From the NCBI GenBank assembly GCA_043228905.1, contig JBHGNT010000005.1, forward strand, positions 18,290,001 through 18,354,000: DNA of 64,000 nucleotides, read 5' to 3'. Below are positions 5,343 to 41,860 of the stretch, one piece after another. The translations under genes and the position numbers were made by a program. Numbering within the stretch: the first letter of the stretch is position 1; each line of letters opens with the position of its first letter. Source of the stretch: Azolla caroliniana. Taxonomy: Eukaryota; Plantae; Polypodiophyta. Under the pieces are notes generated by a model, which saw nothing but the letters and a program-made list of their open reading frames with translations, made no database searches and was not told where the DNA came from.

Positions 5343-5343
5343 C

Positions 5344-5372
5344 AGAAGAAGAAGAAGAAGAAGAAGAAGAAG
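5344..5372. repeat. (AGA)n microsatellite abutting the PRR start codon (TCT repeat in the 5' UTR)
   Basis: About 10 AGA units; a second AAG-rich run at 5443-5472. Confidence 0.85.
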
Positions 5373-5537
5373 AGAAGGAAGTGCGAGGAGTTAGCTGTTT
5401 TGGGAGTGTCGCAGAGATGAGGAAGAAGCCATGAAAGCTACGAAGAAGAAGAAGAAGAAAAAGAAGAAGAAGACAGAGCAGAGACAGAAACTTTCCTCTC
5501 TATCTTCTTCGTGGCGAGAAGGGGGGAAGGAAGGGAT

Positions 5538-12100: not shown

Positions 12101-12364
12101 GAAGCAACCGGGAGTTGTCGAGACTGGAGATGACACTCCTCACCCGATCCTGCATGTTGGAGAAGTTCCCTTGAGTCATGTCTGACAAAAAGGAAACCTT
12201 ATGAATGTTTGGGGACGGGCACAGAATGTTAGTCTTGGTGGGAGCCGATATTTCATCTTCTTCATCGATGACTACAGCCGACACATGTGGATCTATCTTA
12301 TTGAGAAAAAAAGCGAAGTCTTCAACTGTTTCCGGAACCTACAAAGTCTTGTCGAACAGGAAAC
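9124..12364 (+). repeat. Tandem triplication of a 1220-bp gag/PR/INT segment within copia A (9124-10343, 10344-11563, 11564-12364 with a ~419-bp deletion)
   Basis: Landmarks recur at an exact 1220-bp period (atggtcgaag at 9151, 10371, 11591); the same junction gaaac|tctttctttgacc occurs twice. Confidence 0.93.
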
Positions 12365-16500: not shown

Positions 16501-16630
16501 CTAGTGAGGTAGGTGCGTTAGGGGGCTCTGGGTGCTCGCGTTTGATTATCTTCAATCAACTGTGTGCATTTGCGATTCTTTGTTCGCAAAATGAGAAGGC
16601 CTCCATGCGGTGTAGGTTTTCTTTCTACAT
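13596..16630 (-). pseudogene. Extra ~1000-aa sense ORF between integrase and 3' LTR of gypsy B1 (N-terminal globular part, low-complexity linker, long coiled coil); disrupted
   Basis: Fragments 16555-16070, 16066-15758, 15491-14649, 14552-14211 and 14155-13826 are colinear with 51933-55193; ends PLNQSILDILDED*. Confidence 0.8.
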
Positions 16631-17959
16631 GTTCGCACCTTTCTCAATTCTTGCGCATGCGAACGTCGTGTACTATAATGGCAATGAAGTGCCACGTGGC
16701 GGCGTTTTAATGCACTATAAATAGCCCACTACTAGTCTTTTCAAAGTGCCCGTTCACCCCTCCTTTTCATTGCATGTGGCCGTTCGCTCCTCGCCATTGC
16801 ATAGTTTGGGTTTGATTGGATTTGATTTGATTTATTTATTTTTTTAATTGATCTTGTTAATATGTATCTGGCGCAAACGGACCCTTCTCCGGATTGTGCC
16901 TGCCGATTGCATGACCGGTTGTCGTCTCGTCATGCTTATCGGTGTCCGGTGCGGTGTCAGCTTTTGTCTACTCAAACGGGTTTCTTGGCATGGGTCCATA
17001 GTATGGTTTGAGTCGAAACCCATTCACCCATTTACCCATAACTTCGCCGGCGAGTGTTCCTAGCTGGTAAGAACCGTTGAACTCCCGTGTAATCCAATAT
17101 GGTCCGGTCCACCGAAACCGTAGCTTCCTCGGCATCTTACCCATCTGGGTCTGGAATACAAGTACTAGCTTGCCGATCCTGAACCTTTTTTCGTTACCTT
17201 TCCGGTGTCGATCGACAAATGATTTCCTTCTCTGTTGCTCCAGTTCCATATGCATCAGGTTGGCGATCCGGTGTTCCTCCAGTTCGCATAGTGCTGCTAG
17301 CCGGATTGTTTCCGACTCCTTCTCGTTCAGGCGTTCCCTAACCTGTAACCGCAAGCTCGGAACCTGGAATTCGATTGGCATTACCGCTTCCAACCCGAAT
17401 GCCAATTGGAAAGGCGTTGTCTGGATACTTGTCTTATATGCTGTCCGGTAGGCCCAAAGTGCACTGTGCAACTTTGTATCCCAATCCGTCCGGTTCTCAT
17501 TGGCAATTTTCCGGAGGATGTTTTGTAGTGTCTTATTAGTGGATTCGGCTAATCCGTTGGCTTGCGGATAATATGGAGTGCTTCGCTTGTGCACCACTGC
17601 ATAGAATGTCGTCAAGCTCTCCACCACTTGTCCTAGGAAATGCCCTCCTTGGTCGCTGATTAGGTCAATCGGACATCCATACTGGCACCAGATATATTCA
17701 TATAAAAACTTTGCCGTGGATGCCGCGATGTTGTCACGTAGTGCTTTGGCCTCCACCCACTTGGTGCAGTAGTCCGTAGCGACAATTACGTATCAGTTGC
17801 CGGTTCTCATTGTTGGTGGTTTAAATGGGCTGACGAAGTCCAGCCGCCATTTCTGAAATGGTTCCAATGGCAGCACCGGCCGGTGAGGCATTCGTGCCTG
17901 TTCCGTTGGTTGGCCCATCCGTTGACACAAATCGCATTCTTTAGCATACCGGATGACGT

Positions 17960-18754
17960 TGTCGTAGTGTAGGTTGCACACTATGTGGAAATTATATTTT
18001 TGTCCCTCCGGATAGAGAATGGAGTGCTCGGTGAGAACCGGGAGGAAAACGGCATACCGACAAGGAGGAAAACGGCATACCGGCAAGGAAGAAAACGGAT
18101 AAAGAGACATAAATGTAAAAAAAAAAAAAAAAGGAAATACTCACTACTGCGCAAGGTGTGATTCAAACTCTACACCTCCACGTTGACAAACCCCAACCTT
18201 ACCATTACATTAATTTATCTTAAGTGTTTTAAATATAGATTTAATACGTATAAGACCTTTATTTATGCATACCTTTATTAAAAGGTAAATCGTGTATTTT
18301 TTTAATATATGAAAAAGAAAAAACACGAGACACTAAAAATAACTCATGCACATCTAGCGTGCATGAGCCCTATACTTAGGAAATAAAAAAGCATCACATG
18401 CACATTTAGTGGACATGAACACTTTTTGTAAAAAAAAAAAGCATGAAGCCATGCTTAGCTCTTCCTTCCTTATATAAGGAGGAGAGAAATATATAAAGGG
18501 TTGTTGATTATTTGGATTAAGTATTAATCAATACAAAAATTATTCGTGGGATTCACGATTTATACATCTACTTCTCTCTTAACACCCTAAGTACCAATTA
18601 ATATAGTATACTCGTGTGATTCACGAGTTTCTTATCTTTCTCTTCGCTATTTATTCATAATTAATCTCTATCTCACGAACTTCTTTCTCCTAGTCCAAGA
18701 CCTTTGTGGTTCCCACCCGACTCACGCAACGATTCGGAGCCGAAAGGCACGACA
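17960..18754 (+). mobile_element. Solo LTR (TGTCGT..ACGACA) inserted in the B1 integrase, 4-bp TSD ACGT
   Basis: Splits LWWPTTLKDV|IRYAKECD; ACGT at 17956-17959 and 18755-18758; TATATAA at ~18471. Confidence 0.85.
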
Positions 18755-21700
18755 ACGTCTTTTAATGTTGTTGGCCACCATAGGCCACTCTACCATATTT
18801 TCCTTGCCGTAGCGTCCCCACCATAATGCCCTCCGGCAACACCGCAGTGTGCTTCGCGCAGTATTTGGTCTTTTTCGTCGCTGCACACCGCACGCCGCCA
18901 TATGCCGTCCGCGCCTTTATGGTACAGTGTGTCTTGTAGTAGATAGAAGTGCCGGCTTTGTAATGCTAATCTTTTCCGCTCGTCTTTGTTCATCTCCTCT
19001 GGAGGTAACCCAGTGCTGAGGAATTGGTGCATGTTAGTGAGCCACTTGTCCTCCTCGGCGATCATACCATTTGTTGCCGTTTCGGCTGTGACCCTAAACA
19101 AGGCTGCATCCGGAAATTCGTTTGCGACCCCATCCCCGGTTTCTCCGTAGTCTAACTGGCTCAAATAATTTGCAACCACATGTTGTATAGCTGGCCGGTG
19201 AAATATCTCGAACTCAAATTCCTGTAATAATAATGTTCACCGGGCCAGCTTACCCGTGAGTGATGCTTTTGAGACCAAGTAAAGTAGCGCCGAATGATCT
19301 ACATGAAAGGAAAATTTCCTCCCCAACAGATAGTGTCGGAACTTGGTGACGTTATAGATCATGCCCAAGGCTTCTCTTTCCGTTGTAGAGTAATTCCGTT
19401 CTACCTGGGACAGATTACGACTGGCATAATACACGGAGCTACATTAATGCACTCCCTATTGCTATGTCGGACGTGTCTATGAATACGTGGAATTCGTTAG
19501 ACCAATCCGGAGGTTGCACCACCGGTGCTTGTGATAGTAGTACTTTTAATGCCCGGTAAGCCTTCTCTTCTGTGTCCGTCCATTGAAATGGTGTCCGGTG
19601 CACCGCAACATGCAATGGTGTGGCCAGGTCTACTAGATACCGGAGCATCCGGCTATGCCACCAGATTTGTCCTAGGAACCGACTCAATGCTTTTGTCGTG
19701 GTGGGTGCCGGTGCCTCCAAAATTGCTTTGACCTTGTCCGAGTCCACTGCAATACCATCCTTGCTAACGATGTGGCCTAGTAGGGAACCGCTTGACACAC
19801 CGAACACGCATTTTGCCAGGTTAAGGCTTAACCGGTAAGCCCTACATTTCTCAAGACATAGTCGGAGGTATTGGAGGTGTTCCCCTTCCTGGTTGTACAC
19901 AGCGAAATCGTCTAAGAAAACCTGCATGAATGCTGGAATAAATTCTTCGAAAATCTCCATGATTATTCGCTGAAAGGTTGCTGGCGCAGTTTTAAGTCCG
20001 AACATCATGACTACGGCGACAAATACTCCCCATTCAGTAACAACAACGGTTTTCTCCTGGTCATCGGGGTGCATCCGGATCTGATTGTAGCCGTTGAACC
20101 CGTCCAAGAAACTATAAACTTCGTGACTGGCTACTGCATTCCGAACTCCATCCGTAAAAGGGAGAGGGAAGGCGTCGGTTACCGTTGCCGCATTCAATTT
20201 CCGGTAGTTGACACATACCCGGATTTTTCCGTTCTTTTTCGGTACGACGACTATTGGGCTCAACCATGTCACCTTTTTGACCGGTCGGATGAAGCCTACT
20301 CGTAACAATTTGTCGATCTCGTCCTTTACTTTTGCTGCATAGTTAGGGTTCATCCGGTAGCGCCGTTGCGCCACCGGTTTGGCATCCTTACTCAGATGTA
20401 TCTGGTGTTGATACAACTGAGGATCTAGCCCCCGCATGTCCTCGTACGACCATGCGAACACGTCCCGAAACTCCTTTAATAAGGTGATCGTTGTCATCTT
20501 CCTTTCGGGAGTCATTTCTTTGGCGATGTGAACCGGTCTTGCGTCTTCTGCGGTGCCTAGGTTTACCTCTTCCAGCTGAGAGGCTTTGGCGCATTGAGAT
20601 ACTGCCAATTCCTTCTCCAAAGCTTCCTGCGCTTGCCGTAACTCTCTGATGGCTTCCTTATCCGGTTCTTCACCGGCGTCCTCCAATATTATGTATAGTG
20701 CCACTACTTCGGCGACATCCACTTCAAATAAGGGTACAATTTTCGGATTCTCCTATAAGTACTGATCGACCTCCTCATCAGCCAATCCCTCAAGCATGTT
20801 GACACATTCCGCATACAACAGTGTTAGGTCCTTGCTGGTACTTGCCCGTACTTTCGCTTTGCCGCGCTTGAAAGTGATTATGTTTTTCTGCCAGTTTTGC
20901 TTGATGTGCCCTGTTTTTAACCATGGCCGGCCCAGCAACAGTGGGTATGCTCCTTGTGCATTAAGCTGGAGGACTACTGCCGAAATGCGGAATGCGTGAC
21001 CTCCGATAGTCACTTCCAACTCTCGTATCAATCCGGTAGGTCTTACTGAACTTGTGTCCGCCATCCGGAGCCAAAACGGGCACGACTCCCAGTCCTAGAT
21101 TCCCAAGGTATTACAAGTTCGGAGGTTAATCACATTCACGCCGGATCCTCCGTCTATAATCGTTCCGAGTAGTTCTTGTCCCTTGACGATGGTTGTGATA
21201 GCCGGATTGCTCGTGTCGACTACTGTCGGTCCTTCCTCCGGGTTAGAAAAGAATGCCAGAGCCAGTGGCGTGCCGACCACAGTCATGCCCGTATTCAGTC
21301 CTTCCGTAAACCGAGGTACTAACTGCAATAGCCGACCTAATGGCAATGTGATTTTGCATTCTTGCAACGCCTACCATGTTGGGTTTTCCGCTTGGCTATT
21401 GCTAGTGGGCTCCTCTAGATTCTCCTTTTGTTGCTCCAGTTTTGCCACATTATGCTCGTTTGCCTTCTTTACCCATTCGGTGGCCTGCTTCCGGATGGCT
21501 TCTTGGGTTTCCCACTCTGTCACTTTTCCTTTTGCCCTCGTGGTTGTAACGCTCATTCCGTTCCCCATTATAGTCCCGATATCTATCATACCGGTCGCGG
21601 TCATAAGCGTTTCTTCGATCACCGTACCAGACATCTTGTGCCAGCTGATAACGCTCCTCTCACCACCAACGCTCTTCTTCCTCCTCCTGGTTGCTCTGTG

Positions 21701-23629
21701 GTTCGATTTTCCGGACCGGTGGTGCTTGCCGATTTAGCAAGTTATACTCGCACTGATCCATTGTGTGGTTTCTGGAATGGCAAAGCAGGCATTGAGAACG
21801 CATGGTGCACTCCAACGCCGAATGTCTGGCATTCAGGCAAGTTGTACATTGAACTGCTTGTCGAAAGAGGAGGTCTTCATCAGTCGGTAATGTTCGTTGG
21901 AGTGCCCCCATCGTTAGCCACGAGCTGGAGGTTTCCATTTCCCTGACTCGGTCTATGACCTGGTCGACGGAACTCATGCAGAAATCAATGATTGTGCACA
22001 CCGTTCGTAGGGGTTCCCGGAGTGTTGCTAGGAATATCGCCTTAGTCTCTTCCTCCGGTGGTGTCCAACTGAGCTGGCTGTGCATTCTCTAGAATCGGAT
22101 TACAAATTGTTGAATGTTCTCCGTGGGCTCCTGCTTGATGGTATAGAATAGGCCGATCATTTCCCGTTGATCCACTTCTTTGTGAAAAAAATGTAACAAT
22201 TTAGATTTCAAGGCCTCAAACGTCGTGATGGTACTGGGATCTTGCGTCAGGTGCCATCTAGCGGCGGGCCCCTCCAGGGTCATGCCAAACTCCGCCATCT
22301 TTGAGCGTTCTGCTTCGGCCACGATTAAGCGTTGTGACACATGATTCACTTCCCAGGTCTGCTGAAATGCATAGACGTGAGCCTCTGCGTCCAGATCATC
22401 CCGGTACTTGGGATATTGAAACGGCATGTTGTCATCCGGTGTTGGAACACGGGCTGGTGGTGTCGGAGGTCTCTCTTCCTCCTCCGTCGGAGGTCTCTCC
22501 GCCTCCTCTGTCAGAGGTCTTTCTTCCTCTATGGGAGGTCTTTCCGCCTCTGCTTCGATTGTTGGGGTTTGCTCAGTCCTTGGCCAATCTGTGGCATCCA
22601 GCTCTGTCAATTCTGGTTCCGGTGTCGGTGAGGTATCCGATTCCTCGTCCGCTGGTCCGTCTGGGGTGTCGTGACTGCTGTGGTAATTAGAATGAGCGCT
22701 ATATTCGCCGTCCGAGTCCGATTCAAAGGTCGAAAATGGTTCGGAATCGCCGTCTCCTTCAGCTAATGCTTGCAGCAGGGATTCCGTTTCCCGAAGACTA
22801 CTCAAGTTGCTTCCTTCATTGGGGTGGAAATCTTGTTGCAAACGGAGTGACTCCTCAGCCACTCGCCGGATCACTTTGGAAAATGATTGATCTGAACGAA
22901 TTTCTTCTGCCGCTCGCTGGAAGGCCTCTCGCTTCCACATCCACTCAACGAGTCTCCTTGTTCGATCCGTAACCGGCCCGCTCGCTGGTCTAGTCATCCA
23001 TTCCCGCCGCTGTTCGTTGCACTTATGCAGGAATCATGGTCGCCAAAAACTGTGTTACTCCTTAGGGCTAGACAATAGCCTAACACAGGGTGTCTACAGA
23101 AGACGCTTCACCAAAGGGTGTTACGGTGGAACAGAGTTAGACCAACAATTAATCAGACCTTAATCGTTTACTTAATCAACAGATCCTTAATCTTAATACA
23201 CGCGTAAGATAGAAAGTAATTAGCACAGAACGGTAATCAATACACAGAGATAAGGAAATAGAGCTTTATTAATTATCCGTAATCATTTACAATGTAACCG
23301 GGCCTTTTTATAGATCACTGGCTCTACCTACAAAACAGTACCAACCGGCACCCTAATATGAACCGGTCCGGATCCGGATAGGCATACCGATTCCGCTCCA
23401 TCCGTTCATTTCTCTAAAATCTACTTAATTACTTAATATCCTAATAACAACCTCCGATTATTTTTGCCCTTCTATATTCTGGACTGTCCTTCACTCCTTG
23501 CCGGCTAGCTAACAAGAAGAAGATGTCGGAGTATGACACCGACAGAGAAGAGTCGGATCGGAGCGAGACACCTTCCGGATATAATTGGAGCGAGTTGACT
23601 ACCACCGAGATGTTGAAGAAGTTGATGTA

Positions 23630-24168
23630 TAAGGAACCCAAACCCTAAAATCTCTTGAGTAAGAAGTATAATAGAGGCAAAACTCACAAACCTTACAATC
23701 CTAAGTCCTCTAATATGTTGAGGAGAAAAGAAGAAAAGTAGAAAGAAGCTCTCAAACCCTAACCCTAGAAGGAAAAGATGAAAGAGAAAGTGATAAGGAG
23801 AAAGGGAGGCTACAAAACCCTAACCCTAGAAGAAGAGGAGAAGATGAAACCCTAGTGGTACACCCCTAGAAGACAAAATGGGTGACCCCATACTAAGCCC
23901 TATTCCTCCCCTCTTATAGAGGAAAGAGGCGCCTATTTTAACATTACATGCTTCTTTGTTTTTTTCCCTTTATCACAAAAATAGAAGGGGAGCAAAATAC
24001 TCCTTGATTTGTAGCAAAAGAGACCCGAACTCTAAACTGCTCATATATATTTATAAGCCACTAAACTACTACAAGTTATTTATTATTATTATTTTCATTT
24101 ATATATGATTTCATAAGATGTGCATGGAAGCTTGCTTTTTCTCATAGTGCACACGCCACGCCACGACA
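23630..24168 (-). mobile_element. Truncated LTR of the TGTCG..CGACA gypsy lineage (U3 end at 24168)
   Basis: Ends CCACGACA; local similarity to the reverse complement of the 48709-49427 LTR (aaccctag..gtggta..ctcccctcttatag); left boundary approximate. Confidence 0.6.
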
Positions 24169-27100
24169 ACACTCTCCACTACGAGACTATACGACAGCCC
24201 CTAGAGCTCATGCACATAGATATATGTGGGCCCATGCCAGAGTGATCACTAGGAGGCTCCTGGTACTTCATCACCTTTGTAGATTACTGTACACGGAAGG
24301 TCTGGTCCTACTCCATCAGGTCCAAAGACGAAGCGCTCAAGGTCTTCACTCGATGGACAACTGAAGTGGAAAACCGATCCGTTTACAAAGTGAAGACACT
24401 CAGATTCGACAACGGAGGAGAATATACCTCTGGAGCTTTCAAATAGTACTTGTTCGACAAAGGGATTCAACACCAAAAGACCGTTCCTTACACACCCATG
24501 TAGAATGGAGTGGTAGAACGCATTGACGATAATGCTCTAGCAAGTCGGACTGAAGCTGGAGTTTTGGGTCGAGGCATTGCAGACGGTGGTATGCTTAGTA
24601 AATCTTTCGCTGTCAAAAGCAATCAGGCTTGGAGTGCCACCTGCGCTATGGTCAAGCAAACAATTGACCTATGATAGGCTTCGTGTATTCGGATGTGAAG
24701 CCTACGCATTCATCCCCAAGAAGAAAAGGATCAAGTTGGCACCCCATGCAACGAAATGCATATTTCTCGGTTATGGAACCGATGGGAACTTCGGCTACCG
24801 GCTATGGGATCCAGAGAACTAGAAATTGAGCCGGAGTAGTGACATAGTCTTCAATGAAGACTCTATCTTGTCTCAACGGAACCAACAAAAAATAGTTGGT
24901 GAAAGGGTATCCTTCAAAGACGATAGAGTTGACAAATAGTGAAACTCGAACAAGCCAACAATATACCTGCTAACTCCGAATCGGCAACAGGTCCAATAGT
25001 CGAACTCGAAGACAAAGCCATCAAAGACAGAGCCGATTCAACAAGAGTCGAACAAAGCAAAGTCAAAAAGATGCGATCTGAGTCGACAAAGCCCATAGGG
25101 GAGAATGCCATGACACTACTGAAATCCCAGCATGGGGGTGGGTCACCTAACAAGACTACTAACACAAATGGTTCAACAAATACTAGTTGACCGACAGAGC
25201 GGATTGAAGAATCCAAACCACTTATCTCAGCACCCAGGAGATCTGGACGAGCTCAAAGGCCGATAGAGTTTTATCAACCGGGCCTCGACTACGTCAACTA
25301 CAATGATGCAGGCGAACTAGGCACATATGACGAAGCTATGGCAACAACGGACGCCGATACATGGCTACAAGCCATGAGATCCGAAATGGACTCGATTCAC
25401 AAGAATTAGACATGGGAGCTGGTTGAATTACCAGGTGGAAGAAAGCTGCTACCTTGCAAATGGCAAATATGTATTTGACTCAGAGAAACCCAAGTACAAA
25501 GCTCAACTTGTTGCGAAAGGGTTCAAACAATAACATGGGGTCGACTATGATGAGATATTCTCACCAGTAGTCAAGATGACCACCCTCAGACTTTTAGTAG
25601 GAGTTGTGACGACAGAAGACCTAGACCTAGACCAGTTGGATGTAAAGACGACATTCCTACACGGAGATTTGGAAGAAGACATTTACATGTCTCAACCTGC
25701 AGGCTTCACGATAACAGGGGAGGAAAGTCACCTCGTATGTTACTAAAGAAAAGCCTCTATGGCTTGAAACAAGCGCCGAGGATGTGGTACCAGGCAGCTT
25801 GGATACCGCCGATCCGACTCCGACCCATGCATGTATGTTCGGCAACTGGCCAACGAGTCTAGGATTTACCTCATCCTATATATCCACGACATGTTGATTG
25901 CATGAAGTAATCAAGCAAAGATCGGAAAGCTGAAGCAGAGCCTTCACGACAAGTTCGCGATGAAGGAACTCGGACAAGCCCATCACATACTGGGCATCAG
26001 GATCGAGCGAAATCGGATGACCAAGACTCTTCGACTCTCCCAGTCCGATTATATCCGGAAGTTGCTGAGGCGCTTCAACATGGAGAATGCGAAGCCAACA
26101 CCAACACCGCTTCCAACGTCGATCCGACTATCAGACAGAGACTCTCCTTCAATTGACAAGGAGAGAGAGCTTAATGGAAAGATGCCCTATGCATCGGCTG
26201 TAGGAAGTATCATGTATGCAATGGTGGCAACCCGACCCAACCTAGCTTATGCCGTAGGAGTGGTTAGTCGGTACATGTCAAACCCATGACAGAAGCATTG
26301 GGAGGCCGTCAAGCATATCTTTAGGTACATGAGAGGGACCGAAGATACACAACTAACCTTCGATTTGACAACCTCATACGAAGTCGAAGACTACACTGAC
26401 TCCGACTATGCCAGAAATATGGACAATCAGAAGTCAACATCTGGCTATATCTTCACCTATGGTGGTGGTGCTATATCATGGAGGTCGAAACTTTAAGAGT
26501 GTACAACCCTGTCAACCATGGAGGTCGAGTACATAGTAGCATCAGAAGCACTGAAGGAAGCGATTTGGTTGCATCGAGTGTCAACTGATTTTTCAGCTAC
26601 AAGCCGAATCGACTGACCAACGCCTACCATATATTGCGACTCACAGAGTGCAATACACCTCATCAACAATCCTGTCTATCATGCAAAGACAAAGCATACT
26701 GAGTTGCGGTATCATCACATTCGGGAGCTCATAACCGAGAAGAGGCTCGAAGTCGGGAAGATCGACACCGAGGTGAATATCATTGATTGCCTGACGAAGC
26801 CACTCCTAGATTAACGCTTCAGAGCACTAAGGACAAAGATGGGACTGCGACAAGCGATCGAGCAGAAGAAAGTTGAATGAGGAACAGAAGGTAAGAGTTG
26901 ACCGAATCAATCATGATAATGAGCCAGTCTAAGCTCGACATAGACCTCACCTCTGCCGACTCGGCTACATGCCAACCTACTTGTAACATAAATTTAGATT
27001 AGTATTGTAATCTTGGTTTATGGGGGAGATAACCGCAAACACATGTACATGTAGGAAAGAGTAGTCCTTTTATGGGGGAGTTTGTTGACATAAAAGGCCG

Positions 27101-27215
27101 ACTCCTTCCACTTTGTATCCTAGTGTGAACTTGTCTGAAGAGTTAGGGCTTTGTATATAAGCAATAACCTAACATTGTAAAGATAGAGTGCTTGATCATC
27201 TTGTACATCGAGTCT

Positions 27216-27216
<1 letters not shown>

Positions 27217-27262
<46 letters not shown>
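27217..27262. repeat. (GA)n microsatellite inside the copia C LTR
   Basis: About 23 GA units. Confidence 0.9.
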
Positions 27263-27265
<3 letters not shown>

Positions 27266-27666
27266 AGAAATAAAGAGAGCTTCCATTAAAGCTTGATATG
27301 TGTGTCTATATCTTCTTGCCTTCCTTCTGTGTTGTTTACTGAGCATAATCAATAGGTCCTCACATACGTTTCCACGCATATCTGTCCCTCAACTAGTATC
27401 AGAGCAACTTGCTACGCGGTGGCAACAGACCACAAAAAAAGACCAGGTCAGTAAAATCTCACATTCAAAGAAGAATATGGCTTCAACATCCAGAACAAGA
27501 GTTTAAATCAGAAAATTCGCTGGCAAAAACTTTTCCCTTTGGAAGCAGATGATGCAGGACATGCTGATCATCAGAAGACAAGTCGAAGCCATTCAACACA
27601 ATGAAAAACCTGCCTCGATGACAGTCAAAGAGTGGAGATCTATAGACGAAATCGCACGCTCCACCA

Positions 27667-30600
27667 TGTTGAGAAGCAAGCTCAACATGGTATGTGATGC
27701 TTATTGGGAAATAAGCTATAGTAGCTATTTAGCTACTTGTGAACATAAAGGAGAAACAACTAATTAGCTACTGACAGCTATTTAGCTGCATATGTAAGTA
27801 ACTTATTACTTAGGTAAAAAGTAAGAGAGTAGGTAAGTAAGAAATATACAGGAAGTAGAACTCAGAGAGAGAGAGTGAGGATAGAGAGGAAGAACTCAGA
27901 GAGTGAGAGTAGAAGAGAGAAACAAATGAGAGCAAGTAGAGCTCTGCGTGTAATGAAATAGAAGAAGTTTTGGCTGCTACAGAGGTAAGTCTCCTTCCCC
28001 CTTCCCTTCTATGTTTGAGCACCAAACGATCCAGCACACCACAATCCGCTGCGCACATAAGAAGAGCCCGAGTGCCTTCTTCACGTTTTCTTAACATGGT
28101 ATTAGAGCGAGTTGCTCATAAAGAAGAGTACAGAAGTGCATAGATCTGAGAAAGGTATTTCTCTGTTGCTGATCTGAATCAAAAAGTTACTTGTTGAAGT
28201 AATTGTAGCAGAAACCCTAGTTTGGAAGAGATAATGGCTGCAGAGAATGCGGGCCAAATAGTTACAGAGAAACTAGATAAAAACAATTTCCCAGCGTGGA
28301 AATTTAGAATGACAAATTTCCTGATGGGGAAAGGATACTGGGATTACATTGAAGGAGACCTAGAAGAGGCTCCGGAGATCCCAGAAGAAAATGCCACAGC
28401 AGCACAGATTAAAGCATTCAAAGATTGGAATCAAGGGGCAAGGAAGGTAATGCATTGGCTCTCACTTAGCATCTCAGATTCGATGCTTGGGCACATACAG
28501 GATGCTATGCTCCCAAAAGAAGCTTGGGATAGTTTGGTAAAACTGTTTGCAGGAAACACAAAAGCTAGAAAGCTATAGTTGAAGACTGAGCTAAATACCT
28601 TAGAAAAAGGTAAGATGCAAATAAATGAGTATGCTTTGAAAATAAAGAGCATATGTGAACCACTTGCTTCTATCAATGTAAAGATAGAAGATGATGATAA
28701 GGTAGAAATATGCTTGAGAGGCTTAGGACCTCAATACAAAAGCTTTAAAACCTCTATGCTTACAAGGGATAGTATCCCAAGTTTTCCAGATCTGGTTTCA
28801 ACGCTTGTAGTAGAAGAAAGGAATAAGATGGATGATGTAAATAAAGGAAATCTTGAGAATGAGGGGCAAGCCCTATATAATAGTGCTGGAAGCGGCCGAG
28901 GAAGAGGCCATGAAAGATTTGGCTCAACAAGAACCAACAATAATGGTTATCAAGGAAGAGGACAACAAACCATTAGAGGAAGAAACAACAACAGAGGCAG
29001 GGGGAGCAACCAAGGTAGAGGTAAGCAAACATACGTAAATGATGATGTCTATTGGTATTGTGGAAAACCAGGCCACACACAGGTTGAATGTTATAAGAAG
29101 CAAAATGATGAGCAAAGAGGAAAGAGATAGTAGAATAACTATGCCCAAACTAGTGAAGATTGTGAAAAAGATGGTGCATTTGTGGTACAACATGAGATAG
29201 CAGTAGTGGCTGAAAGCTCACAAAAATGTAATGAAGAGTTTACATGGTATGTAGACTCGGGGGCATCTAACCATATGACTGGACATGCAAACTGGATTGA
29301 AAGGTTAAGAGAACCAGAGATTCCTGGCTATGTACAGACGGGTGATAATAGTACTCACCAAATAGAACATGTTGGAGATATCCCATTGTGGGAAGAAAAA
29401 GGAAAGACAAAGTATATGTTGAATGTAATGCATGTTCCAAATCTTGCTAAGAATCTGATTTCTGTTGGATAGATAGTAGAGCAAGGTATGCAAGTAAAGT
29501 TTAAGCAAAGTGGATGCTATATAGAAAAGAATGGGAAGCTCATTGCAAAAGGAAAACGACAAGGAAGAATGTTTATTTTGGATGTTGACATGCCTAGACA
29601 GATTTCAGCTATGTTTGCAAATGGAATGAGTGTAATCTCAGATGTGGAAATGTGGCATAAAAGGATTGGCCACATAAGTATGCAAACCCTAAAGAATATG
29701 TTGAGAAAAGATGTAGTGGCTGGACTGCCAAAACTGAAAAATTGTGAAATGGGAAAGATATGTGAAGCATGTCAATATGGAAAGAAAAATAGGTTGCCAT
29801 TACCTCATGAAAGACATGTAAGTAAAAATTTGTTGGATTTGGTACATACAGATGTATGGGGACCAACTAAGAATGCATCTATCGGTGGTTGCAGATTCTA
29901 TGTAACTTTTATTGATGATTGCTCAAGGAAAACATGGGTGTACTTCATGAAAGAGAAAAGTGAAGTGTTTGAATGTTTTCGTAAGTTTAAATGCATGGTA
30001 GAAAAGCAAGCAGGTACAAGAATAAAATGTTTAAGATCTGATGGAGGAGGAGAGTATTTCTCCAAGGAATTTTCTGATTTTCTATGCAATCAGGGAATAA
30101 GAAGACAGTGCACATGTAGATATACTCCACAACGAAATGGAGTTGCTGAGAGGAAAAACAGAACATTGGTGAACATTGCAAGGGCTTTGATGACAGAGAA
30201 GAATATGCCATTGTACTATTGGGCAGAAGCTGTAAATACAACAAATTATATTCTAAATAGATGTATAACATCGGGAGTACATGAAGCAACTCCTGAAGAG
30301 TGTTTCTATGGAAGGAAACCTAGTTTAGAACACTTAAAAGTGTTTGGATGCCTTGCATATGTACATGTGCCTGCAGAAGTAAGAAGTAAGCTGGATCCAA
30401 AAGTAGAAAAATGTATTTTTGTTGGCTATTCAAAAGAAGAAAAAGGGTATAGATGCTATAACTCTGTAACAAAGAAGATTGTGACAAGTAGGGATGTAAT
30501 CTTTGATGAGTTAGCCAGATGGTACAGTCCAAAACAGAATCCAGAGACTGATGAAGACAATGAGATTGAAGACAGAGACAAATTTGAAAATGTAGAAGAC

Positions 30601-33051
30601 TGCCACAGAGATGGAAGCAAGGTTGGACAGCAAAGTCCAACATCAACAGAATGTTCTGGACCATCAAAAAGCTCAGATGGTAAATCTGATTCGGATTCTT
30701 GGAGTGGAAAAAGTGGAGGACACAAAAAATGTGATGATAAAAAAGGAAAACAGAAAATGCCAGAGTATGAAATGTTGGATGATTTGTCATTGGTGAGGAT
30801 TCAGATATGTCATTGGATGATTTTCTTGGTATAAGAGGATTGAAAATCCCTAGTATGGAAAAAGCATTGAAGGATGCAAATCAGAAACTGAGAAGATCAG
30901 ATAGAGAGAAAAAAACTGTTGAAAGATTTGGTTATGATAGATATATGGCTATGGATTATGCATATATGTCTAAGGTGGTACAGATCCCTGATCCAAGTAG
31001 TTTTGATGAGGCTAAAACTGAGAAGAAATGGGTGGATGCAATGCAAGAAGAGATTGATGCATTGGCTGAAAACAAAACATGGAATTTGGTGAAGTTACCA
31101 AAAGGAAAAAATGTGGTAGGTTGCAAATGGGTCTACAAGACAAAGCATGATTCCAGTGGGAATGTAAGTAGACATAAAGCAAGATTGGTTGCAAAGGGAT
31201 CTGCCCAAATGCAAGGAATTGATTATGATGAGACATTTGCACCGGTTGCAAAGATGGCAACATTGAGGACATTACTGGCTGTAGGTGCAGCCAGAAGATG
31301 GTTTCTTCATCATATGGATGTAAAAAATGCCTTTTTACATGGTAACTTGGAAGAAGAAGTGTATATGTGTCAACCACCAGGTTTTGAAGATAGGACTCTC
31401 TATGTATGTAAGCTGAAAAAGGCTCTCTATGGACTGAAACAGGCACCAAGAGCATGGCACAGAGAACTTTCAGATTATCTGAAAAAACTTGACTTCAAAA
31501 TGTCAAAGGCTGATTCATCATTGTATGTTAAAAGGAAAGATGATTGTATTGTTTTGATTCTGATTTATGTTGATGATCTCATCATTGGAGGTGATTCCAT
31601 GGATAAAATAAGTAAGCTGAAAAGAAATTTGGAAATGCAGTTTCATATGAAAGATTTGGGAGATCTGAGATATTTTTTGGGTATTGAAATCATCAGATCT
31701 GAAAGTGGTATATATGTGTTGCAAAGACAATATGCAACAACTATGTTGAAAAAGTATGGTATGCTTGGATGCAAACCTATTAGAGTACCACTAGATAAAA
31801 ACTGCAAATTGAGGGTTGATTTGGGAGCCAAAATAGAAGATGTAAACATGTACAGGTCTATGGTGGGCAGCCTTATTTATTTGACCATAACAAGACCTTA
31901 TTTGAGTTATGCAGTTGGATTAGTCAGCCAATTTATGCAACAGCCAACAAAGCCGCATTTGGACTGCATTAGAAGAATTCTGAGGTATGTAAAAGCTACT
32001 CAGAACTATGGATTGTTTTACAGGGCTGATTTGGACATAAATCTGGAAGGATATACAGATGTTGATTGGGCTGGAAGCCAAACAGATAGAAGATCCACAA
32101 GTGGATATATGTTTACATTGGGAAGTGCAAGTATTTCATGGAGTAGCAAGAAACAAGCTACTGTTGCATTGTCTAGTACTAAAGCTGAGTACAGAGGAGC
32201 CGCCATAGCCACTTGTGAAGAGGTATGGATCAAAAGATTGCTTGCTGATTTGGGAGAGTATATACATGGTACTGTCACAATTTGGTGTGACAATATGAGC
32301 GGCATTCAGCTTGCAAAAAACCCAGTGTTCCATGCAAGAACAAAGCACATTGAAGTGCATTATCACTTTGTTAGAGAAAAAGTGATTGAAGGAGAAGTTG
32401 ATCTGGTGTATGTGAATACAAATCAGCAGGTTGCTGATATTCTCACAAAGGGATTGAGTGTGGAAAAGCATACACAGTTTCGGAACATGATGGGAGTTGT
32501 AGACACTGATATGATGGCTGAAAAGCATCGTGGAAAAGAAGTTGTAGATAACCCCAAGAAAGGATAAGTTGAGCTTGAGGGGGAGTGTTGAGAAGCAAGC
32601 TCAACATGGTATGTGATGCTTATTGGGAAATAAGCTATAGTAGCTATTTAGCTACTTGTGAACATAAAGGAGAAACAGCTAATTAGCTACTAACAGCTAT
32701 TTAGCAACTGACAACTAATTAGCTACAGGCAGCTAATTAGTTGCATATGTAAGTAACTTATTACTTAGGTAAAAAGTAAGAGAGTAGGTAAGTAAGAAAT
32801 ATACATGAAGTAGAACTCTGAGAGAGAGAGTGAGGATAGAGAGGAAGAACTCAAAGAGTGAGAGTAGAAGAGAGAAACAGACGAGAGCAAGTAGAGCTCT
32901 GCGTGTAATGAAATAGAAGAAGTTTTGGCTGCTACAGAGGTAAGTCTCCTTCCCCCTTCCCTTCTGTGTTTGAGCACCAAACGATCCAGCACACCACGAT
33001 CCGCCGCGCACATAAGAAGAGCCCGAGTGCCTTCTTCACGTTTTCTTAACA
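27667..33051 (+). mobile_element. Full-length A-rich Ty1/copia element D nested in the gag of C: LTRs 27667-28096 and 32586-33051, TSD CACCA
   Basis: CACCA at 27662-27666 and 33052-33056; PBS TGGTATTAGAGC 28097-28108; PPT GAGGGGGAG ending at 32585; the LTRs differ by a 36-bp indel in an agctaattagct repeat and by a few substitutions. Confidence 0.95.
28234..32567 (+). pseudogene. gag-pol polyprotein of copia D (few stops, one frameshift)
   Basis: Zn knuckle YCGKPGHTQVEC, WYVDSGASNHM, INT 29488-30834, RT YVDD and RNase H in 30807-32567. Confidence 0.9.
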
Positions 33052-34353
33052 CACCATCCAAATGCATTTGGCCAAAAACGTCTACTTGAGCATGTCAAAA
33101 GAGATGACAACGTTCTCACTACGGGAGAAACTACAAGCCGTGTACGAGAAAAAGTCCTCATCTTCAAAACTGATTTTGATCAAACAACTTTTCAACATGA
33201 GGATGAGAGAGTCTGATTTGGCTACCTCCCACATCAACACCTTCAGTCGGGTGTTGTTAGAACTCTCCTCACAAGGGATGAACTTCGAAGAAGAAGTGAA
33301 AGCCCTTGCCCTCCTATGGAGTTTGCCAACGAGTTGGGAGGTATTTTGCACGACATACGCCAATAGCCGACCAATCCTAAATCTGGATGAGACGATCGGC
33401 CAAGTCCTCATCGACGACATTCAGCGAAAATCGATGCGACTTACCATCAATGAATCAATAGAAGCCCATCACTCGACCGATTTGTTCGACCAATAGAGTC
33501 GAACGAGAGAACAAACCGGCAGAACTAGTCAGAATACCAACCGATCAAAAACGAGGGGAGACCGACAATAGTCAAAGTTGAGGATAGGCCAATCGGGCGA
33601 TTTCTGCACACATTGCAGAAAAGCTGGCCACAATGTTTCAGACTACTGGTCAATCAAGAAAAAAGAGAGTGGTCGACAATCCGATCGGAATCGAGGATGA
33701 CCTGACTCAGACCACTCTCCTACAGGCAACCAAATCAATGTTGCCGACACCTAATCAGGAGAAATTCTCTCCTGAGAGGATTCAGTGATCGGAGAAGTCC
33801 TCTATAGTGCACAAGATGCACATATGTGGTTACTGGACTCCGGTGCCACGTTTCACGTGACCCCCAACATTGAATGGTTCTGGAACTATTTAGCTGAAGT
33901 CAGCGGCATAGTCTAACTAGGCAATGGGCAGGAATGCAAAGTCACAGGGACCGTAGAGGTTCCTATCAGATTGCCAAATGGCAACATGATCACCTTGCAC
34001 TGAGTGCGGCACTTACACGATCTAAAAACGAGTCTGGTCTCCGTCGGCATGTTAGCCGAAGACGGGTACAAAACGACTCTAAGTGAGTCGGTATGGATGA
34101 TCAACCGAGGAAACCTTACAGTTGGGAGAGGGCACAAGTACAACAACTTGTACCCATTGATGTCAATCAATCTAGGAGGGGTTGTGAATGTAGCCAAAAA
34201 GACTGACCCGAACTTATGGCATGGTCGACTCGGCCATATGTCTCAAGCCGAACTTGATCGGTTGATGGCGGTCGGCTACATCCCTAAACTCCAAGGAAAG
34301 ACGGACTTTTGCGAGCATTGTCGATACGGGAAACAAACCTGAAGTCCGCACGC

Positions 34354-35921
34354 TATCGTGAAAATCCATCACTATGTTCGGATTGTGAGGCGGAACCACC
34401 AGGGTTATGGAAGGGAAGGAAATAGGGCTCACACGCACAACACAAGGAAGGCTTACAAAAACAAGGCACGAGTATTTGAACGTGTTTGTGAAAAGGAGAG
34501 GTGCATGGGCAAGCCCGAATCAACCCCTAGTCACAAGGCGAACGAATGCACGCGAGGAAGGCTTACACATGGACACACAAGGAAGGCTTACACAAAAAAG
34601 GCATGAGTATTCGAATGTGTTTGTGAAAAGGAGAGGTGCATGGGCAAGCCCGAATCAACCCCTAGTCACAAGGCGAACGGATGCACGTGAGGAAGGCTTA
34701 CACACAGACACATAAGGAAAATGCTTACTTACACACACGAGAGACAAAGTTTCGAATGCCTTTGTGAAAAGAGAGGTGCATGGGCAAGCCCGAACGCTCC
34801 CTTGTTACAAGTCGCACGAACACACAAGCAAGATTTACACTAACACGCAAGACACGAAAGTTTGAATGCCTTTGTGAAAGGAAAGGTGCATGGGCAAGCC
34901 CGAAACACTCCCTTGTCACAAGACACACAAACAGATAAGCATAAATGATAATAACTTATAAGACACGTAAGTTTGAATGCATTTGTGAAAGGAGAGGTGC
35001 ATGGGCAAGCCCGAAACGCTCCCTTGTCACAAGACACACAAATAGATAAGCACAAATGACAATAACATATAAGATATGTAAGTTTGAATGCCTTTGTGAA
35101 GGGAGAGGTACATGGGCAAGCCCGAAACGCTCCCTTGTCACAAGACACACAAACAAATAAGCAAAAATGACGATAACATATAAGATACGTAGGTGAAACC
35201 AAACATTATTTTATTGCAATATAATAGATTCTTTTATAAAATAAGAATCAATTTTACAACGGGTTTGATATGAATATGAGAGATATCAATTTTACAAGGG
35301 GGAAGAGAGGTGGAGGAAAGAAGAGAGTGGACTATAGAAGAAGGTGATTCTTTGTTGATAATGCCTCTCGATGTTGTCGATCGTTCTTCTTTTGCCTTCC
35401 AATTGAGTGGAGCTTCCACGTTCCTTCTCCCTCCCCCCCTTCTTCACTAGAATAGGCTCTTATCTATAGGTTTAGGATTGCTTCCCTTTTTCCCCTAAAA
35501 AAAGCTTGTCTATATGAGTCGACTTTTCTTTTCCTCACTATCTCTATTTTCTAGCCCCAAATTTCACATGCAAGATATTCTTGGAAAGTTCTTTGCGTCA
35601 CTTTCTTATGCATCTTTTCTTTTCTAATTTGGACATCTGACAAGGAAATTATGAGCTTTTTTCTCTACTGTGCTCCTCAAATCCATGCGTGTTCTTTTTC
35701 TCTACTTTTGTCTACTTTTGAAAACCGCCTCTAACTTAATATTCATCATTATTTATAGTAAGGTTCAATCCTTTGACCTTTTATTTATAAGGAATTATCT
35801 TTGGCAAATGAAAAAGTATTTTTGCTACCAATAAAGTTGACTTCACAATACAAGTTTATTTGAACTACTATTTTACTTCTTTTCGAGGGTGGTTTCACAC
35901 TGTGTTAGAAACATCACGACA
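34354..35921 (-). mobile_element. Long LTR-like segment of the TGTCG..CGACA lineage, with a tandem array
   Basis: Starts T(A)TCGTG after ACGC, carries the shared U5 motif at ~34390, ends CATCACGACA at 35921; TATA-like site near 35465 on the minus strand; right boundary uncertain. Confidence 0.55.
34486..35143. repeat. Six-unit tandem array (period 110-141 bp) with a conserved ~50-nt self-complementary core
   Basis: TTGTGAA..GGTRCATGGGCAAGCCCGAA..T(C/T)ACAA cores start at 34486, 34621, 34762, 34872, 34983, 35094. Confidence 0.9.
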
Positions 35922-36210
35922 ACTCGATAGTCCGGATGATCGGAAGATACCTCACACGTGTACATTAGGTAAGAAAATTTGGCCATTGATTCATGGAGGT
36001 TGTACCATATCCGACATCAGTGGCCGAGAAAGAAAGAGGGTTGAAGGGCGCCTGAAGGCATGCAGAGCGTTGGGCCCGAAGCCTTTCGCACCCCTTGAAG
36101 AACTTACCCAAGGATTCTCAAAATCATTGCATAAAGCAGCTACAAATGCCTTTCAGGCCCCTTCTGAATCTGATGGAGTTGGCAGCTAGTCCTTCTTTTC
36201 TTTGGGGGCG

Positions 36211-36283
36211 GGCAGGTATAACTTAATGATCAGAGTGTCAAATTGTGAATTTGAAAACACAGGTTCAAATCCCGTTACTCGCC
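36211..36283 (+). tRNA. trnH: Organellar (mitochondrial-type) tRNA-His(GUG), probably a pseudogene within a NUMT
   Basis: Cloverleaf: encoded G-1; acceptor GCAGGTA/TACTCGC + C73; D stem ACTT/GAGT; anticodon stem TCAAA/TTTGA with GTG at 36245-36247; T arm ACAGG-TTCAAAT-CCCGT; two A.C stem mismatches. Confidence 0.8.
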
Positions 36284-37167
36284 AATTGAGTATAGAAACT
36301 AGAAACTCTATACTCCCCATGCATACATGTGGGTCCTAAATCTTTTACTCTGTTTTTCCTTACAGTTTTCCTTAACCAATAAACCCTCTTGTTTAGTATA
36401 GAAACATACCTTTTCATATTCTATACTCCCGCATGAATGAAGGACTATAGTCTCCTAGCCTCTTGAGCTATATCGCACTTCATCAATTAGGTAGAAAGTT
36501 GTTGTTACTTTGGAAATTTCACTACCAAAGTTAAAGATCGTGATACAAGGAGATGTGTGAAGTCGATTTTTGCTCATAGGAAAAGACCGTGGCAAATACA
36601 TTGGATGCGAAGGTATAGAAGAATAAAGCACAATATGAAAGGTCCAAGAGTTAAAAGATAAATGAAATTGAAGAGAAATAAAGTTAGATTTGTTTTTCAA
36701 AAGTAGAAACAGCAGAAAAAAAGAAAAAGAAGAAAAACGCAGGAAATTAAGCAGGAAAAGCAAGTTAGAGAAAAAAGCTCATAACTTCTTCATCTCTTAT
36801 CCAAATTTCAAAAGAAAATATTCGTAAGAAAGCTAACAAAGAGAGATTTCTTGTATGAAAAATTTGGATGACAAACTAGAAATAATGATATGAAAAATGC
36901 ACCACACAAACTCGAGGATATGTAAAAGAAAAGAAAAGAAAAAGCAAGAATAACGCAACTAAAAACCCATAAGTATGAGGGTATTCTTAGCAATTGGGGA
37001 GATGTGGGGGGAATTGAATAGTTACGAAGGAAGGAGGAATAGAAGATCTACAAGAAGAAGTGAGGAAGAAGAAGGGAGGAAGAAGAGGAAGATTAGAATA
37101 AGTGAGAAGACAATTAGTAGAAGAAGATGGAAAGATTATTTTAGTAATAGCATATTGCAGTACTTAT

Positions 37168-40100: not shown

Positions 40101-41790
40101 GAAAGAGGGCACTCCGGAACAAGTGGGTGTACAAGCTGAAACCGGGAGACGCTGGAAATCCACCAAGGTATAAGGCCTGAATCGTGGTGAAGGGCTTCCA
40201 GCAGAAGAAAGGAGTGGACTTTGATGAGATCTTTGCCCTGGTAGTAAAGATGGCATCCATCCGGACGGTATTGGGCATAGCGGTAAGCATGGCCCTCGAG
40301 GTAGAGCAATTGGACGTCAAGACGACATTCCTACACGGAGACCTCGATGAAGAGATCTACATGCATCAATCAGAAGGATTTGAGAAGAAAGGGAAGGAGC
40401 ACCTGGTGTGCTGGCTGAAGAAGAGCTTATACGGACTGAAGCAAGCTCCCCGGCAATGGTACCGGAAGTTTGACTCCTTCATGACCGATCAAGGGTACCA
40501 CAAGACACAGGCCAATCACTGCGTGTTTGTGAAGAAATTTGATGGAGGAGATTTCCTGATATTGCTCCTGTACGTGGATGACATGTTGATTGTCGGACGA
40601 GACCAAGTCAAGATACGGATGCTGAAGAAGGCCCTTAACCGGACCTTCTCAATGAATGACTTGGGTTTGGCAAGATAGATACTGGGGATGCACATCATTC
40701 GGGACCGGTGTCGAGGTATTCCTCGCGGATGCATGGAATGAGGCGGGGCCTCAGGGGTCTTGTACCGAAGAGCAAGAGACAAAGGAGAAGGGAAGGGACC
40801 CACTACGTGTGGGCGTAGATTCACAGGGGCACGGCCCTTCGACACAAAGACGCGAGTGGGACACCGACGCAGAGAGACACGAATGTATGTATATATATAA
40901 ATTAACAAGGACAATCAACAAGAAGCACAAAGTCAGTTACAACCAAACAGGCCAGCGAACAGATGCCGATGCCTGTTCGTAAACGCTCAGAAAGAAAGGA
41001 GTAGGTTGGAGGTGCTGCCGGAAGCACTTGGGCATTCCTCAGAGCAGTGCGAGCCTCCCGAAAACCTGCACAGAAAGAAGCTACGGAGTTTGGGAGAGAG
41101 AGAAGCCTTCGCCCGACAACCCGACAACACTTCGTCCTCTCTAACCGCGATCCGTCCCCCCCCCCTCGTCTCCCTCCTTTTATAGGCAAGGAAGGAGCCG
41201 TTTCCCATTAACTTCCTACCTACCGAATCTACCTACCTAGGATCTTCTATGTACCTAATTCTCTCTTATGTACAACATAAGGCGTACGTGCATGAAGAGC
41301 CGGTTCCTACGCTCTGGTGCACCGATTCCACTTATGGACGGTTTTCTTCATGACACCGGTCGAAGAAGCAATTGTGCATGTCATAGGAAAAGTATGTGAC
41401 AAAGGTGCTTCAACGGTTTAACATATTAGAAGCAAAACCGGTCGGATCGACTCTCTTGACAAACTGCAGATTATCCAGTGAGAAAATCCCGAAAATAAAG
41501 GCAGAGAAGGTGGATATGATGAAGATTCCATATGCCTCTACTGTCGGGAGCTTGATGTACGCAATGGTGTGTACTTGACCGGATATTGGATACGCAATCG
41601 AAGTGGTGAGTCGGTTCATGACCAACCCCAGAAAAGAGCACTAGAATGCGGTAAAATGGATAATCCGGTACTTGAAGGGCACTTCGAGTATGTGCCTCCG
41701 ATTCGGCTCCAATAAACCCCTCATGGAAGGCTTTACCGATTCGGATATGTCGGCTGATGTGGACACCAGCCGGTCAATTTCAAGATATGA
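37168..41790 (+). mobile_element. Decayed Tnt1/Tork-like copia E: 5' LTR 37168-37710, PBS 37714-37725, gag-pol, truncated at the start of RNase H
   Basis: TGGTATCAGAGC; CFYCSKLGH; INT 38894-39760; RT QLDVKTTFLHGDL..LYVDDMLI; no 3' LTR. Confidence 0.88.
40709..41355 (-). mobile_element. Solo LTR of gypsy family F in the copia E RT, 4-bp TSD CCGG
   Basis: Near-identical to the LTRs at 41861 and 47554; CCGG at 40705-40708 and 41356-41359. Confidence 0.93.
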
Positions 41791-41860
41791 CTGGACCGCA
41801 AGATCCGATCCGTTCATCTTCTGCTCTTCTGCCACCTCTTTCACGTCGGGTTCACCAAGA

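What the first reader, a model, noticed from the sequence alone, without database searches (positions are those of the whole stretch)
24169..34353. Circularly permuted single-LTR copia opened exactly at a foreign gypsy target site
Seen: the order is INT-RT-RH-PPT-LTR-PBS-gag-PR, with one central LTR. The right end (..CEHCRYGKQT*SPH, ending ACGC at 34350-34353) joins the left end (ACAC tctccactacgag = LHYETIRQPLELMH, from 24169) in frame, with 15 aa between GKQ and LELM, the spacing I recall for Tnt1. ACGC/ACAC is therefore a 4-bp TSD with one CpG decay, but it faces outward, and each side abuts a TGTCG..CGACA-type LTR end in consistent orientation. Inference: either a copia 1-LTR circle was cut by another element's integrase and later captured in the chromosome, or this is the middle of a tandem (LTR-LTR unequal crossover) array whose outer halves were lost.
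Basis: partly seen in the sequence, partly recalled or inferred. Interest (0 to 1): 0.8.

Follow-up and report, generated by a model that had tools for sequence, protein, structure and literature searches.

The report
Permuted copia between two unrelated LTRs
A dead plant jumping gene lies here with its back half in front of its front half, cut exactly at a 4-letter site that is repeated at both outer ends and bordered by the ends of two different other jumping genes; it is likely the surviving middle of a head-to-tail duplicate, though a captured DNA circle remains a close rival.

Summary
The permuted copia is real. The order is INT core-RT-RH-PPT-one LTR-PBS-gag-PR-INT zinc finger. In 28 of 29 relatives that span the site, the two window ends meet with exactly a 4-nt overlap. 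No relative has ACGC there (25 of 28 have T at position 3), so both ends likely descend from one copy with a CG-centred site, the target type of the TGTCG..CGACA gypsy elements here (Phygy-like NCGN). The halves are equally diverged (8.3% and 8.2%). No outer copia halves remain in the window. Best reading (0.45): middle of a shared-LTR tandem whose host copy carried a hybrid or same-site double insertion, trimmed on both sides; a second shared-LTR tandem remnant lies at 41796-48199. Close rival (0.3): a copia circle opened by an integrase holding one end from each family, then captured by end-joining; a possible primer-site remnant beside the left LTR favours this. It is one decayed locus and the route cannot be settled without the genome or an orthologous allele.

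The parts
23520..23602 (+). Tail of the integrase region of an unrelated copia (copia A), cut off here; left outer junction of the structure (position approximate, 23600-23635)
   Evidence: Frame continues across the gypsy 13081-23514 (TSD AGAAG) into KKMSEYD, like KQKMPEYE of the nested copia; no RT, RH or 3' LTR of copia A follows
23603..23610 (-). Candidate remnant of a primer-binding site plus spacer beside the left LTR
   Evidence: 7 of 8 nt match the PBS-side junction of the window's TGTCG-type gypsy; of 417 TGTYG sites in the window only this one and the two defining junctions match; found post hoc
23611..24168 (-).
   Evidence: Ends CACGACA at 24168; TGTTGA at 23611; orientation inferred from a TATA-like motif near 23912-23920; not alignable to X2
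24169..24172 (+). Left copy of the 4-nt duplicated site, ACAC
24173..26880 (+). Copia B 3' half: integrase core and tail, RT, RNase H; many stops and frameshifts
   Evidence: 71-83% identity to related loci
27070..27082 (+). Polypurine tract
   Evidence: read from the sequence
27083..27391 (+). Single central LTR of copia B
   Evidence: Hits of L012, L014 and L037 start at 27083; no second copy in the window
27394..27405 (+). Primer-binding site of Met type (label recalled), one change from the form in most relatives
27420..27666 (+). Copia B 5' leader and start of gag
27667..33051 (+). Younger nested copia with TSD CACCA (27662-27666, 33052-33056)
   Evidence: LTRs differ at 10 of 430 aligned sites; relatives and contigs skip it
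33057..34349 (+). Copia B rest of gag, protease, GAG-pre-integrase and integrase zinc finger
34350..34353 (+). Right copy of the 4-nt duplicated site, ACGC (NCGN type)
34354..35921 (-). Right LTR (family X2), 1568 nt, lone, with internal tandem repeats; high-copy family
   Evidence: L017 holds the same terminus at 91% inserted at TCGG in another copia B copy; a contig of another copy ends at 35921; loose ends behind it begin CCGG or AC+GT
35922..35925 (+). ACTC, right flank of X2; one change from ACGC and not NCGN
35925..37167 (+). Element Z: internal piece of an older gypsy of the same group in the opposite orientation, then a PPT-like tract and an X2-related LTR from about 36500; right outer neighbour
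   Evidence: 35925-36081 aligns to the internal region of the gypsy at 44901-45500 (score 97; shuffles 32 +/- 5, max 47.5); 36496-37055 aligns to reverse-complemented X2 (239; shuffle max 122.5)

Best explanation
This is a decayed copia retrotransposon whose 3' half precedes its 5' half around one LTR, broken exactly at a duplicated 4-nt site between LTRs of two different families, and it is likely the surviving middle of a shared-LTR tandem duplicate. Inferred steps: (1) one copia B copy carried ACGC in its integrase gene, a CG-centred site; (2) a Phygy-like gypsy integrase inserted there and duplicated the 4 nt; the inserted DNA had an X2 end on the left and an X1 end on the right, either because a second element inserted into the duplicated site or because the incoming DNA was a hybrid of two families; (3) unequal crossover between the copia's own LTRs made a head-to-tail dimer sharing one LTR; (4) a deletion removed everything left of the X1 LTR, and a deletion or an X2-X2 crossover with a copy lying in element Z removed everything right of the X2 LTR; (5) CpG decay turned one ACGC into ACAC and a younger copia entered gag at an unknown time. 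Shown: the anatomy, the exact overlap, the two families, the absence of outer halves. The structure is inert; no function is proposed.
For: Exact 4-nt overlap in 28 of 29 spanning relatives, with a shared departure from the family letter at position 3. Equal private divergence of the halves: 77 of 923 (8.3%) and 100 of 1213 (8.2%) well-conserved columns. Shared-minor-allele profiles of the halves correlate at rho 0.43, reached by 9% of 702 cross-copy pairs and in the same-copy range. All 6 other TGTCG-type outer junctions read in the window have NCGN targets, 3 of them as two-sided TSDs, as stated for Phygy in PMC6317226. Every step is a described process: shared-LTR tandems are frequent, and target preference plus a TSD favours double insertion (PMC5932611 passages; PMC1950507 abstract); 63 three-LTR elements and pre-integration LTR swaps are reported in rice (10.1101/452573, first half read). 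The window holds another shared-LTR remnant cut 65 nt past a PBS (41796-48199).
Against: It needs several independent events. A second insertion at the same site is about 1 in 200 if the 196 CG sites left in copia B are used evenly (inference). If 23603-23610 is a real primer-site remnant, the left deletion must end within 8 nt of the LTR edge. Neither outer half survives in the window, so the tandem is not seen directly. The plain identity version of the same-copy test was uninformative (rho 0.18; same-copy median 0.36, cross-copy median 0.06), and the transversion-only version was weaker (rho 0.31, reached by 18% of 671 cross pairs). Reported LTR swaps are within one family, not between unalignable LTRs.
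Confidence: 0.45

Rival explanations
1. A copia one-LTR circle (or a chromosomal copy then released by LTR-LTR recombination) was opened by an integrase complex that held a U3 end from family X1 and a U5 end from family X2; the resulting linear piece, X1-copia-X2, was captured by end-joining at a chromosome break between copia A and element Z.
For: Explains in one event the permutation, the outward TSD, two families in matching orientation (one giving each kind of end), no outer halves and no outer TSD. The candidate PBS remnant left of X1 is what an LTR-plus-PBS donor would leave (inference). One-LTR circles are abundant for fly copia, 73.9% of its circles (PMC12951756 passages). [quoted passage not shown]
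Against: The same paper finds reintegration rare. Two families must share one integrase complex; not shown here or in my searches. The PBS match is 8 nt, found post hoc, and the neighbouring bases can also be read as copia A coding sequence. The AC right of X2 is also the commonest start of an NCGN target, so it is weak evidence for an unprocessed end.
Confidence: 0.3
2. A chromosomal copia B that already held an X2-X1 composite looped out as a one-LTR circle and was recaptured elsewhere by homologous crossover between its X2 LTR and an X2 LTR lying in element Z; a later deletion removed the left X2 and the 5' part of Z.
For: X2 is very high-copy (summed contig depth up to 65,000 in bins of X2 where single contigs lie near 30-60, run X1; a rough sign only). 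The lone X2 has unmatched flanks ACGC and ACTC, as a hybrid LTR would. No outer copia halves are needed.
Against: Still needs the two-family composite and a left deletion ending at the X1 edge; gives a product identical to the tandem route, and circle recapture is rarer than unequal crossover (general knowledge).
Confidence: 0.15
3. The arrangement is an assembly error or a chance meeting of two unrelated truncated copia copies.
For: No listed contig spans 24168/24169 or 34353/34354 (table 8 is cut to 32 pieces). The best public run holds only 0.36 of the sampled words, so this allele was not confirmed in reads.
Against: Both junctions fall exactly on LTR termini and on one 4-nt site of the family; an assembler or chance would not be expected to do this. 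Nested TSDs inside and around the structure are intact. The halves are equally diverged.
Confidence: 0.05

Closest known systems
Shared-LTR tandem ('complex', three-LTR) retrotransposons (PMC1950507, abstract; PMC5932611, passages; 10.1101/452573, first half of text)
   Same: Internal region, one LTR with PPT before and PBS after, then internal region of the same family.
   Different: Both outer LTRs and both outer half-elements are absent; the ends fall on one 4-nt site in the integrase gene, bordered by foreign LTRs of two families.
Double insertion at one target site (McGurk and Barbash 2018, PMC5932611, passages)
   Same: Target preference plus TSD lets two elements use one site; would give three similar tetramers, and ACAC, ACGC and ACTC are seen.
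   Different: The passages read deal with dimers of one family; here two unalignable LTR families are involved and no X1 terminus follows the ACTC.
One-LTR extrachromosomal circles of LTR retrotransposons (PMC12951756, passages)
   Same: Joining the two ends of the copia piece on paper gives the layout of a full-length one-LTR circle.
   Different: Those circles rarely reintegrate; a chromosomal copy opened at a foreign integrase site was not found in my searches.
Phygy non-chromovirus Ty3/gypsy elements (Neumann et al. 2019, PMC6317226; Jedlicka et al. 2019, PMC6911290; passages)
   Same: 4-nt TSD with NCGN preference; gypsy domain order in the sister element at 42507-47553 (RNase H, then integrase).
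   Different: Described from Physcomitrella; the host here is likely a fern; X1 and X2 are LTRs only, and no tree with Phygy references was built.

Membership tests
Ty1/copia LTR retrotransposon (copia B) | gag, protease, integrase before RT and RNase H once the permutation is allowed for | tested here: met
   Pfam Retrotran_gag_2, Pol_BBD, gag_pre-integrs, rve, RVT_2; relatives carry the halves in normal order; RNase H from recalled motifs only
Ty1/copia LTR retrotransposon (copia B) | Two flanking LTRs with a TSD | tested here: not met
   One central LTR only; this is the rearrangement itself
Tork/Tnt1 lineage of copia | Placement in RT/INT trees with reference elements | not tested
Shared-LTR tandem element | Central LTR with PPT on one side and PBS on the other | tested here: met
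   27070-27405
Shared-LTR tandem element | Two outer LTRs and two full internal regions | tested here: not met
   No other copy of the LTR or of either half in 64 kb; so it can be at most a remnant
Reinserted one-LTR circle | Complete, nucleotide-exact circular permutation of one copy | tested here: met
   4-nt overlap in 28 of 29 spanning relatives
Reinserted one-LTR circle | Both halves from the same copy | tested here: inconclusive
   Equal divergence; rho 0.43, reached by 9% of cross-copy pairs; also expected for a tandem
Reinserted one-LTR circle | Empty orthologous site without any copia B | not testable with these tools
   No genome held; no run holds more than 0.36 of the words
Single LTR-element insertion at the break | Both flanking LTRs of one family | tested here: not met
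   No alignment above shuffles at equivalent positions
Phygy-like gypsy (X1, X2) | 4-nt TSD with NCGN preference | tested here: met
   6 of 6 other outer junctions in the window; X2 at TCGG in L017; loose ends CCGG and AC+GT; but the flank at 35922 is ACTC. Not tested on other X1 copies
Phygy-like gypsy (X1, X2) | Placement with Phygy in polyprotein trees | not tested
   X1 and X2 have no coding part here; the sister element's integrase hits unnamed and Riccia gypsy polyproteins with no chromodomain listed

The most novel reading that the evidence does not exclude
A fossil of a two-donor integration in a plant germ line: one integrase complex held LTR ends from two different gypsy families, cut a free copia one-LTR circle at a CpG site, and the linearised circle was captured in the chromosome. 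It would show that retrotransposon circles are integration targets and can become heritable.
Probability: 0.22. Interest if true: 0.7.

Novelty: new variant of a known kind. Interest (0 to 1): 0.38.

Why it matters
Whether retrotransposon circles ever return to chromosomes in a heritable way is open; one fly study finds many circles and rare integration (PMC12951756). A permuted element with an outward-facing foreign TSD is a searchable footprint for that question, and one TSD shared by two LTR families points to hybrid or double insertions that annotation tools miss. As a single decayed locus whose route is undecided, its value is as a search pattern rather than a result.

Tried and rejected
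Whole-genome search for other permuted copies: no genome held. Viral contigs: 0 matches to the X1 end; no relative of the integrase core among 22 candidate stretches. A 17-nt stretch left of X1 in prokaryote genomes gave 17 scattered hits, fewer than about 70 expected by chance, so no sign of a conserved tRNA end. I first read 36156-36533 as an organellar insert with a tRNA; ARAGORN found 0 genes, and the flank nearer X2 proved to be gypsy internal sequence; 36156-36533 stays unexplained. The second read-laying did not show what precedes ACTC in other copies of Z (195 loose-end rows not shown). No listed contig spans either junction; with cut tables and no run of this genotype that is no evidence. 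Autointegration of X2 into its own DNA was rejected: Z's LTR is only about 70% like X2 and X2's other end is in copia B. One-family models (single insertion plus tandem, or plus circle capture) were rejected because X1 and X2 do not align. Two independent copia copies fused at an LTR is disfavoured because both would need the rare letter at the site. Helenus/Ajax TRIMs (PMC10886601 passages) are unrelated. Searches of earlier scan notes for permuted elements found nothing. Supplements were not read; Additional file 1 of PMC6317226 may list Phygy termini and primer sites that bear on the X1 boundary.

Full report
Setting. The window is a nest of LTR retrotransposons beside a pseudo-response-regulator gene (CCT motif). 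No whole genome is held.

Anatomy. From 24173 the plus strand encodes a copia integrase core (rve), RT (RVT_2) and RNase H (recalled motifs only), then a PPT, an LTR at 27083-27391, a PBS at 27394-27405 and gag. A younger copia (27667-33051, TSD CACCA, LTRs 2.3% apart) interrupts gag. The rest of gag, the protease, the GAG-pre-integrase region and the integrase zinc finger run to 34349. No second copy of the LTR or of either half lies in the window.

The break is exact. A scan of metagenome contigs gave 44 loci of this family. Aligning the 60 nt before 34350 and the 60 nt after 24172 separately, 29 loci passed on both sides: 28 have exactly 4 nt between them and one has 3; 15 did not pass on one side. 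Contigs of other copies jump from 34345-34352 back to 24169 or 24172 in 4 of 4 runs. So the halves overlap by one tetramer. The family tetramer is ACTC in 21 of 28, T stands at position 3 in 25 of 28, and none has ACGC. The window's ACGC and ACAC both depart from the family at that position. The simplest reading is one ancestral copy with ACGC and later CpG decay on one side (inferred); ACAC also occurs in 2 of 28 relatives.

The cut fits the local gypsy integrases. The six other outer junctions of TGTCG..CGACA elements that I read in the window all have CG-centred targets: ACGT, CCGG and CCGG as two-sided TSDs; ACGC, GCGT and GCGT one-sided. Neumann et al. state that Phygy elements prefer NCGN (PMC6317226, passages), and Jedlicka et al. 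that 4-bp TSDs are commonest in Galadriel, Phygy and Bryco (PMC6911290, passages). A sister element at 42507-47553 has gypsy order, with RNase H before integrase, and its integrase hits gypsy polyproteins including Riccia ones. 'Phygy-like' is therefore a likeness, not a tested membership.

One copy or two. Both halves differ from well-conserved family columns at the same rate: 77 of 923 and 100 of 1213. With 27 spanning relatives, plain identities correlate weakly (rho 0.18, uninformative). Shared minor alleles give rho 0.43, reached by 9% of 702 cross-copy pairs; transversions alone give 0.31, reached by 18% of 671. L001 and L043 rank in the top six on both sides. This is mild support for one subfamily and does not separate tandem from circle.

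The flanks are two families. The left LTR and the right LTR do not align above shuffles; lenient scoring gives 68.5 against shuffle maxima of 67.5-68.5, in non-equivalent positions. The right LTR (X2, 34354-35921) has natural termini: L017 holds the same end at 91% identity, inserted at TCGG in another copia B, and loose ends behind 35921 begin CCGG or AC+GT. Its right flank is ACTC, then the internal part of an older related gypsy in the opposite orientation (Z). The left LTR (X1) abuts the truncated integrase tail of another copia. It may be complete from 23611: the 8 nt before it match the PBS-side junction of the sister family at 7 of 8 positions, and none of the other 414 TGTYG sites does. 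This was noticed post hoc, and the bases could be copia A sequence.

How it arose. Any model must give one TSD shared by two LTR families, a permutation around one LTR, and no outer halves. The tandem route uses only described steps: shared-LTR tandems by LTR recombination or template switching (PMC5932611 passages; PMC1950507 abstract), double insertion at a preferred site or a pre-integration hybrid (10.1101/452573, first half read), and deletions. The window has a second shared-LTR remnant cut 65 nt past its PBS at 41796. Its cost is a coincidence of about 1 in 200 for the same site (196 CG sites remain) and two trims close to LTR edges. I give it 0.45. The two-donor route, in which an integrase complex with one X1 end and one X2 end opens a one-LTR circle and the linear product is end-joined into a break, explains all features at once and predicts the PBS remnant, but needs a heterologous complex and a rare capture (PMC12951756 passages; PMC8742673 figure legends). 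I give it 0.3. Recapture of an excised circle by crossover at X2 gives the same product as the tandem route (0.15). Misassembly is unlikely (0.05), though no listed contig spans the junctions and the best run holds 0.36 of the words.

Novelty. Searches of the paper library for permuted or reintegrated one-LTR elements, shared-LTR tandems and two-donor integration showed, at the level of listings and the passages named, no chromosomal permuted copia with an outward foreign TSD; the library lacks most subscription papers. Earlier scan notes hold no such case. The parts are known kinds; the combination is a rare variant at one decayed, functionless locus. Interest 0.38; it would rise to about 0.7 if an empty orthologous site and a confirmed X1 primer-site remnant showed that a circle was opened by two families' ends.

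Noticed in passing
window 41796-48199: TGTCG-type gypsy on the minus strand with a PBS and 65 nt of leader outside its 3' LTR, joined without TSD to copia RNase H sequence; the other end sits at ACGC. A shared-LTR tandem remnant or a one-ended insertion of an over-long cDNA. LTRs 1.2% apart.
   Followed up: partly
window 59257-59936: A 63-nt LTR start at a GCGT target in a copia integrase gene is followed by a related LTR in the opposite orientation at another GCGT: an inverted insertion near an LTR end, resembling autointegration.
   Followed up: no
window 13541-13561 and 55203-55262: The minus-strand gypsy 13081-23514 and its relative near 48200-55706 have a PBS-like sequence in place of a PPT beside the 3' LTR, as earlier notes on this genome describe (e1-10597996 and others, unchecked).
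   Followed up: partly
window 9124-12364: Copia A holds an internal 1220-nt unit (late gag to integrase) in about three tandem copies, 95-96% alike.
   Followed up: no
window 17960-18754, 40709-41355, 48709-49427: Three lone TGTCG-type LTRs with two-sided 4-nt TSDs ACGT, CCGG and CCGG; a further decayed start at 7621 follows ACAT.
   Followed up: yes
window about 1100-5400, minus strand: Pseudo-response-regulator gene (CCT motif); best named hits are Ginkgo, Adiantum, Cryptomeria and Diphasiastrum at 35-48% identity, so the host is likely a non-flowering vascular plant.
   Followed up: partly
window 36156-36533: Stretch matched by one contig per run at several times single-copy depth, with a degraded tRNA-like segment near 36210-36285 that ARAGORN does not call; possibly organellar.
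   Followed up: partly
L017:3-233; L035, L040, L041: Other copia B copies carry an X2 LTR (L017, at TCGG) or the LTR family of window 62195-62485 next to or within their coding regions.
   Followed up: partly
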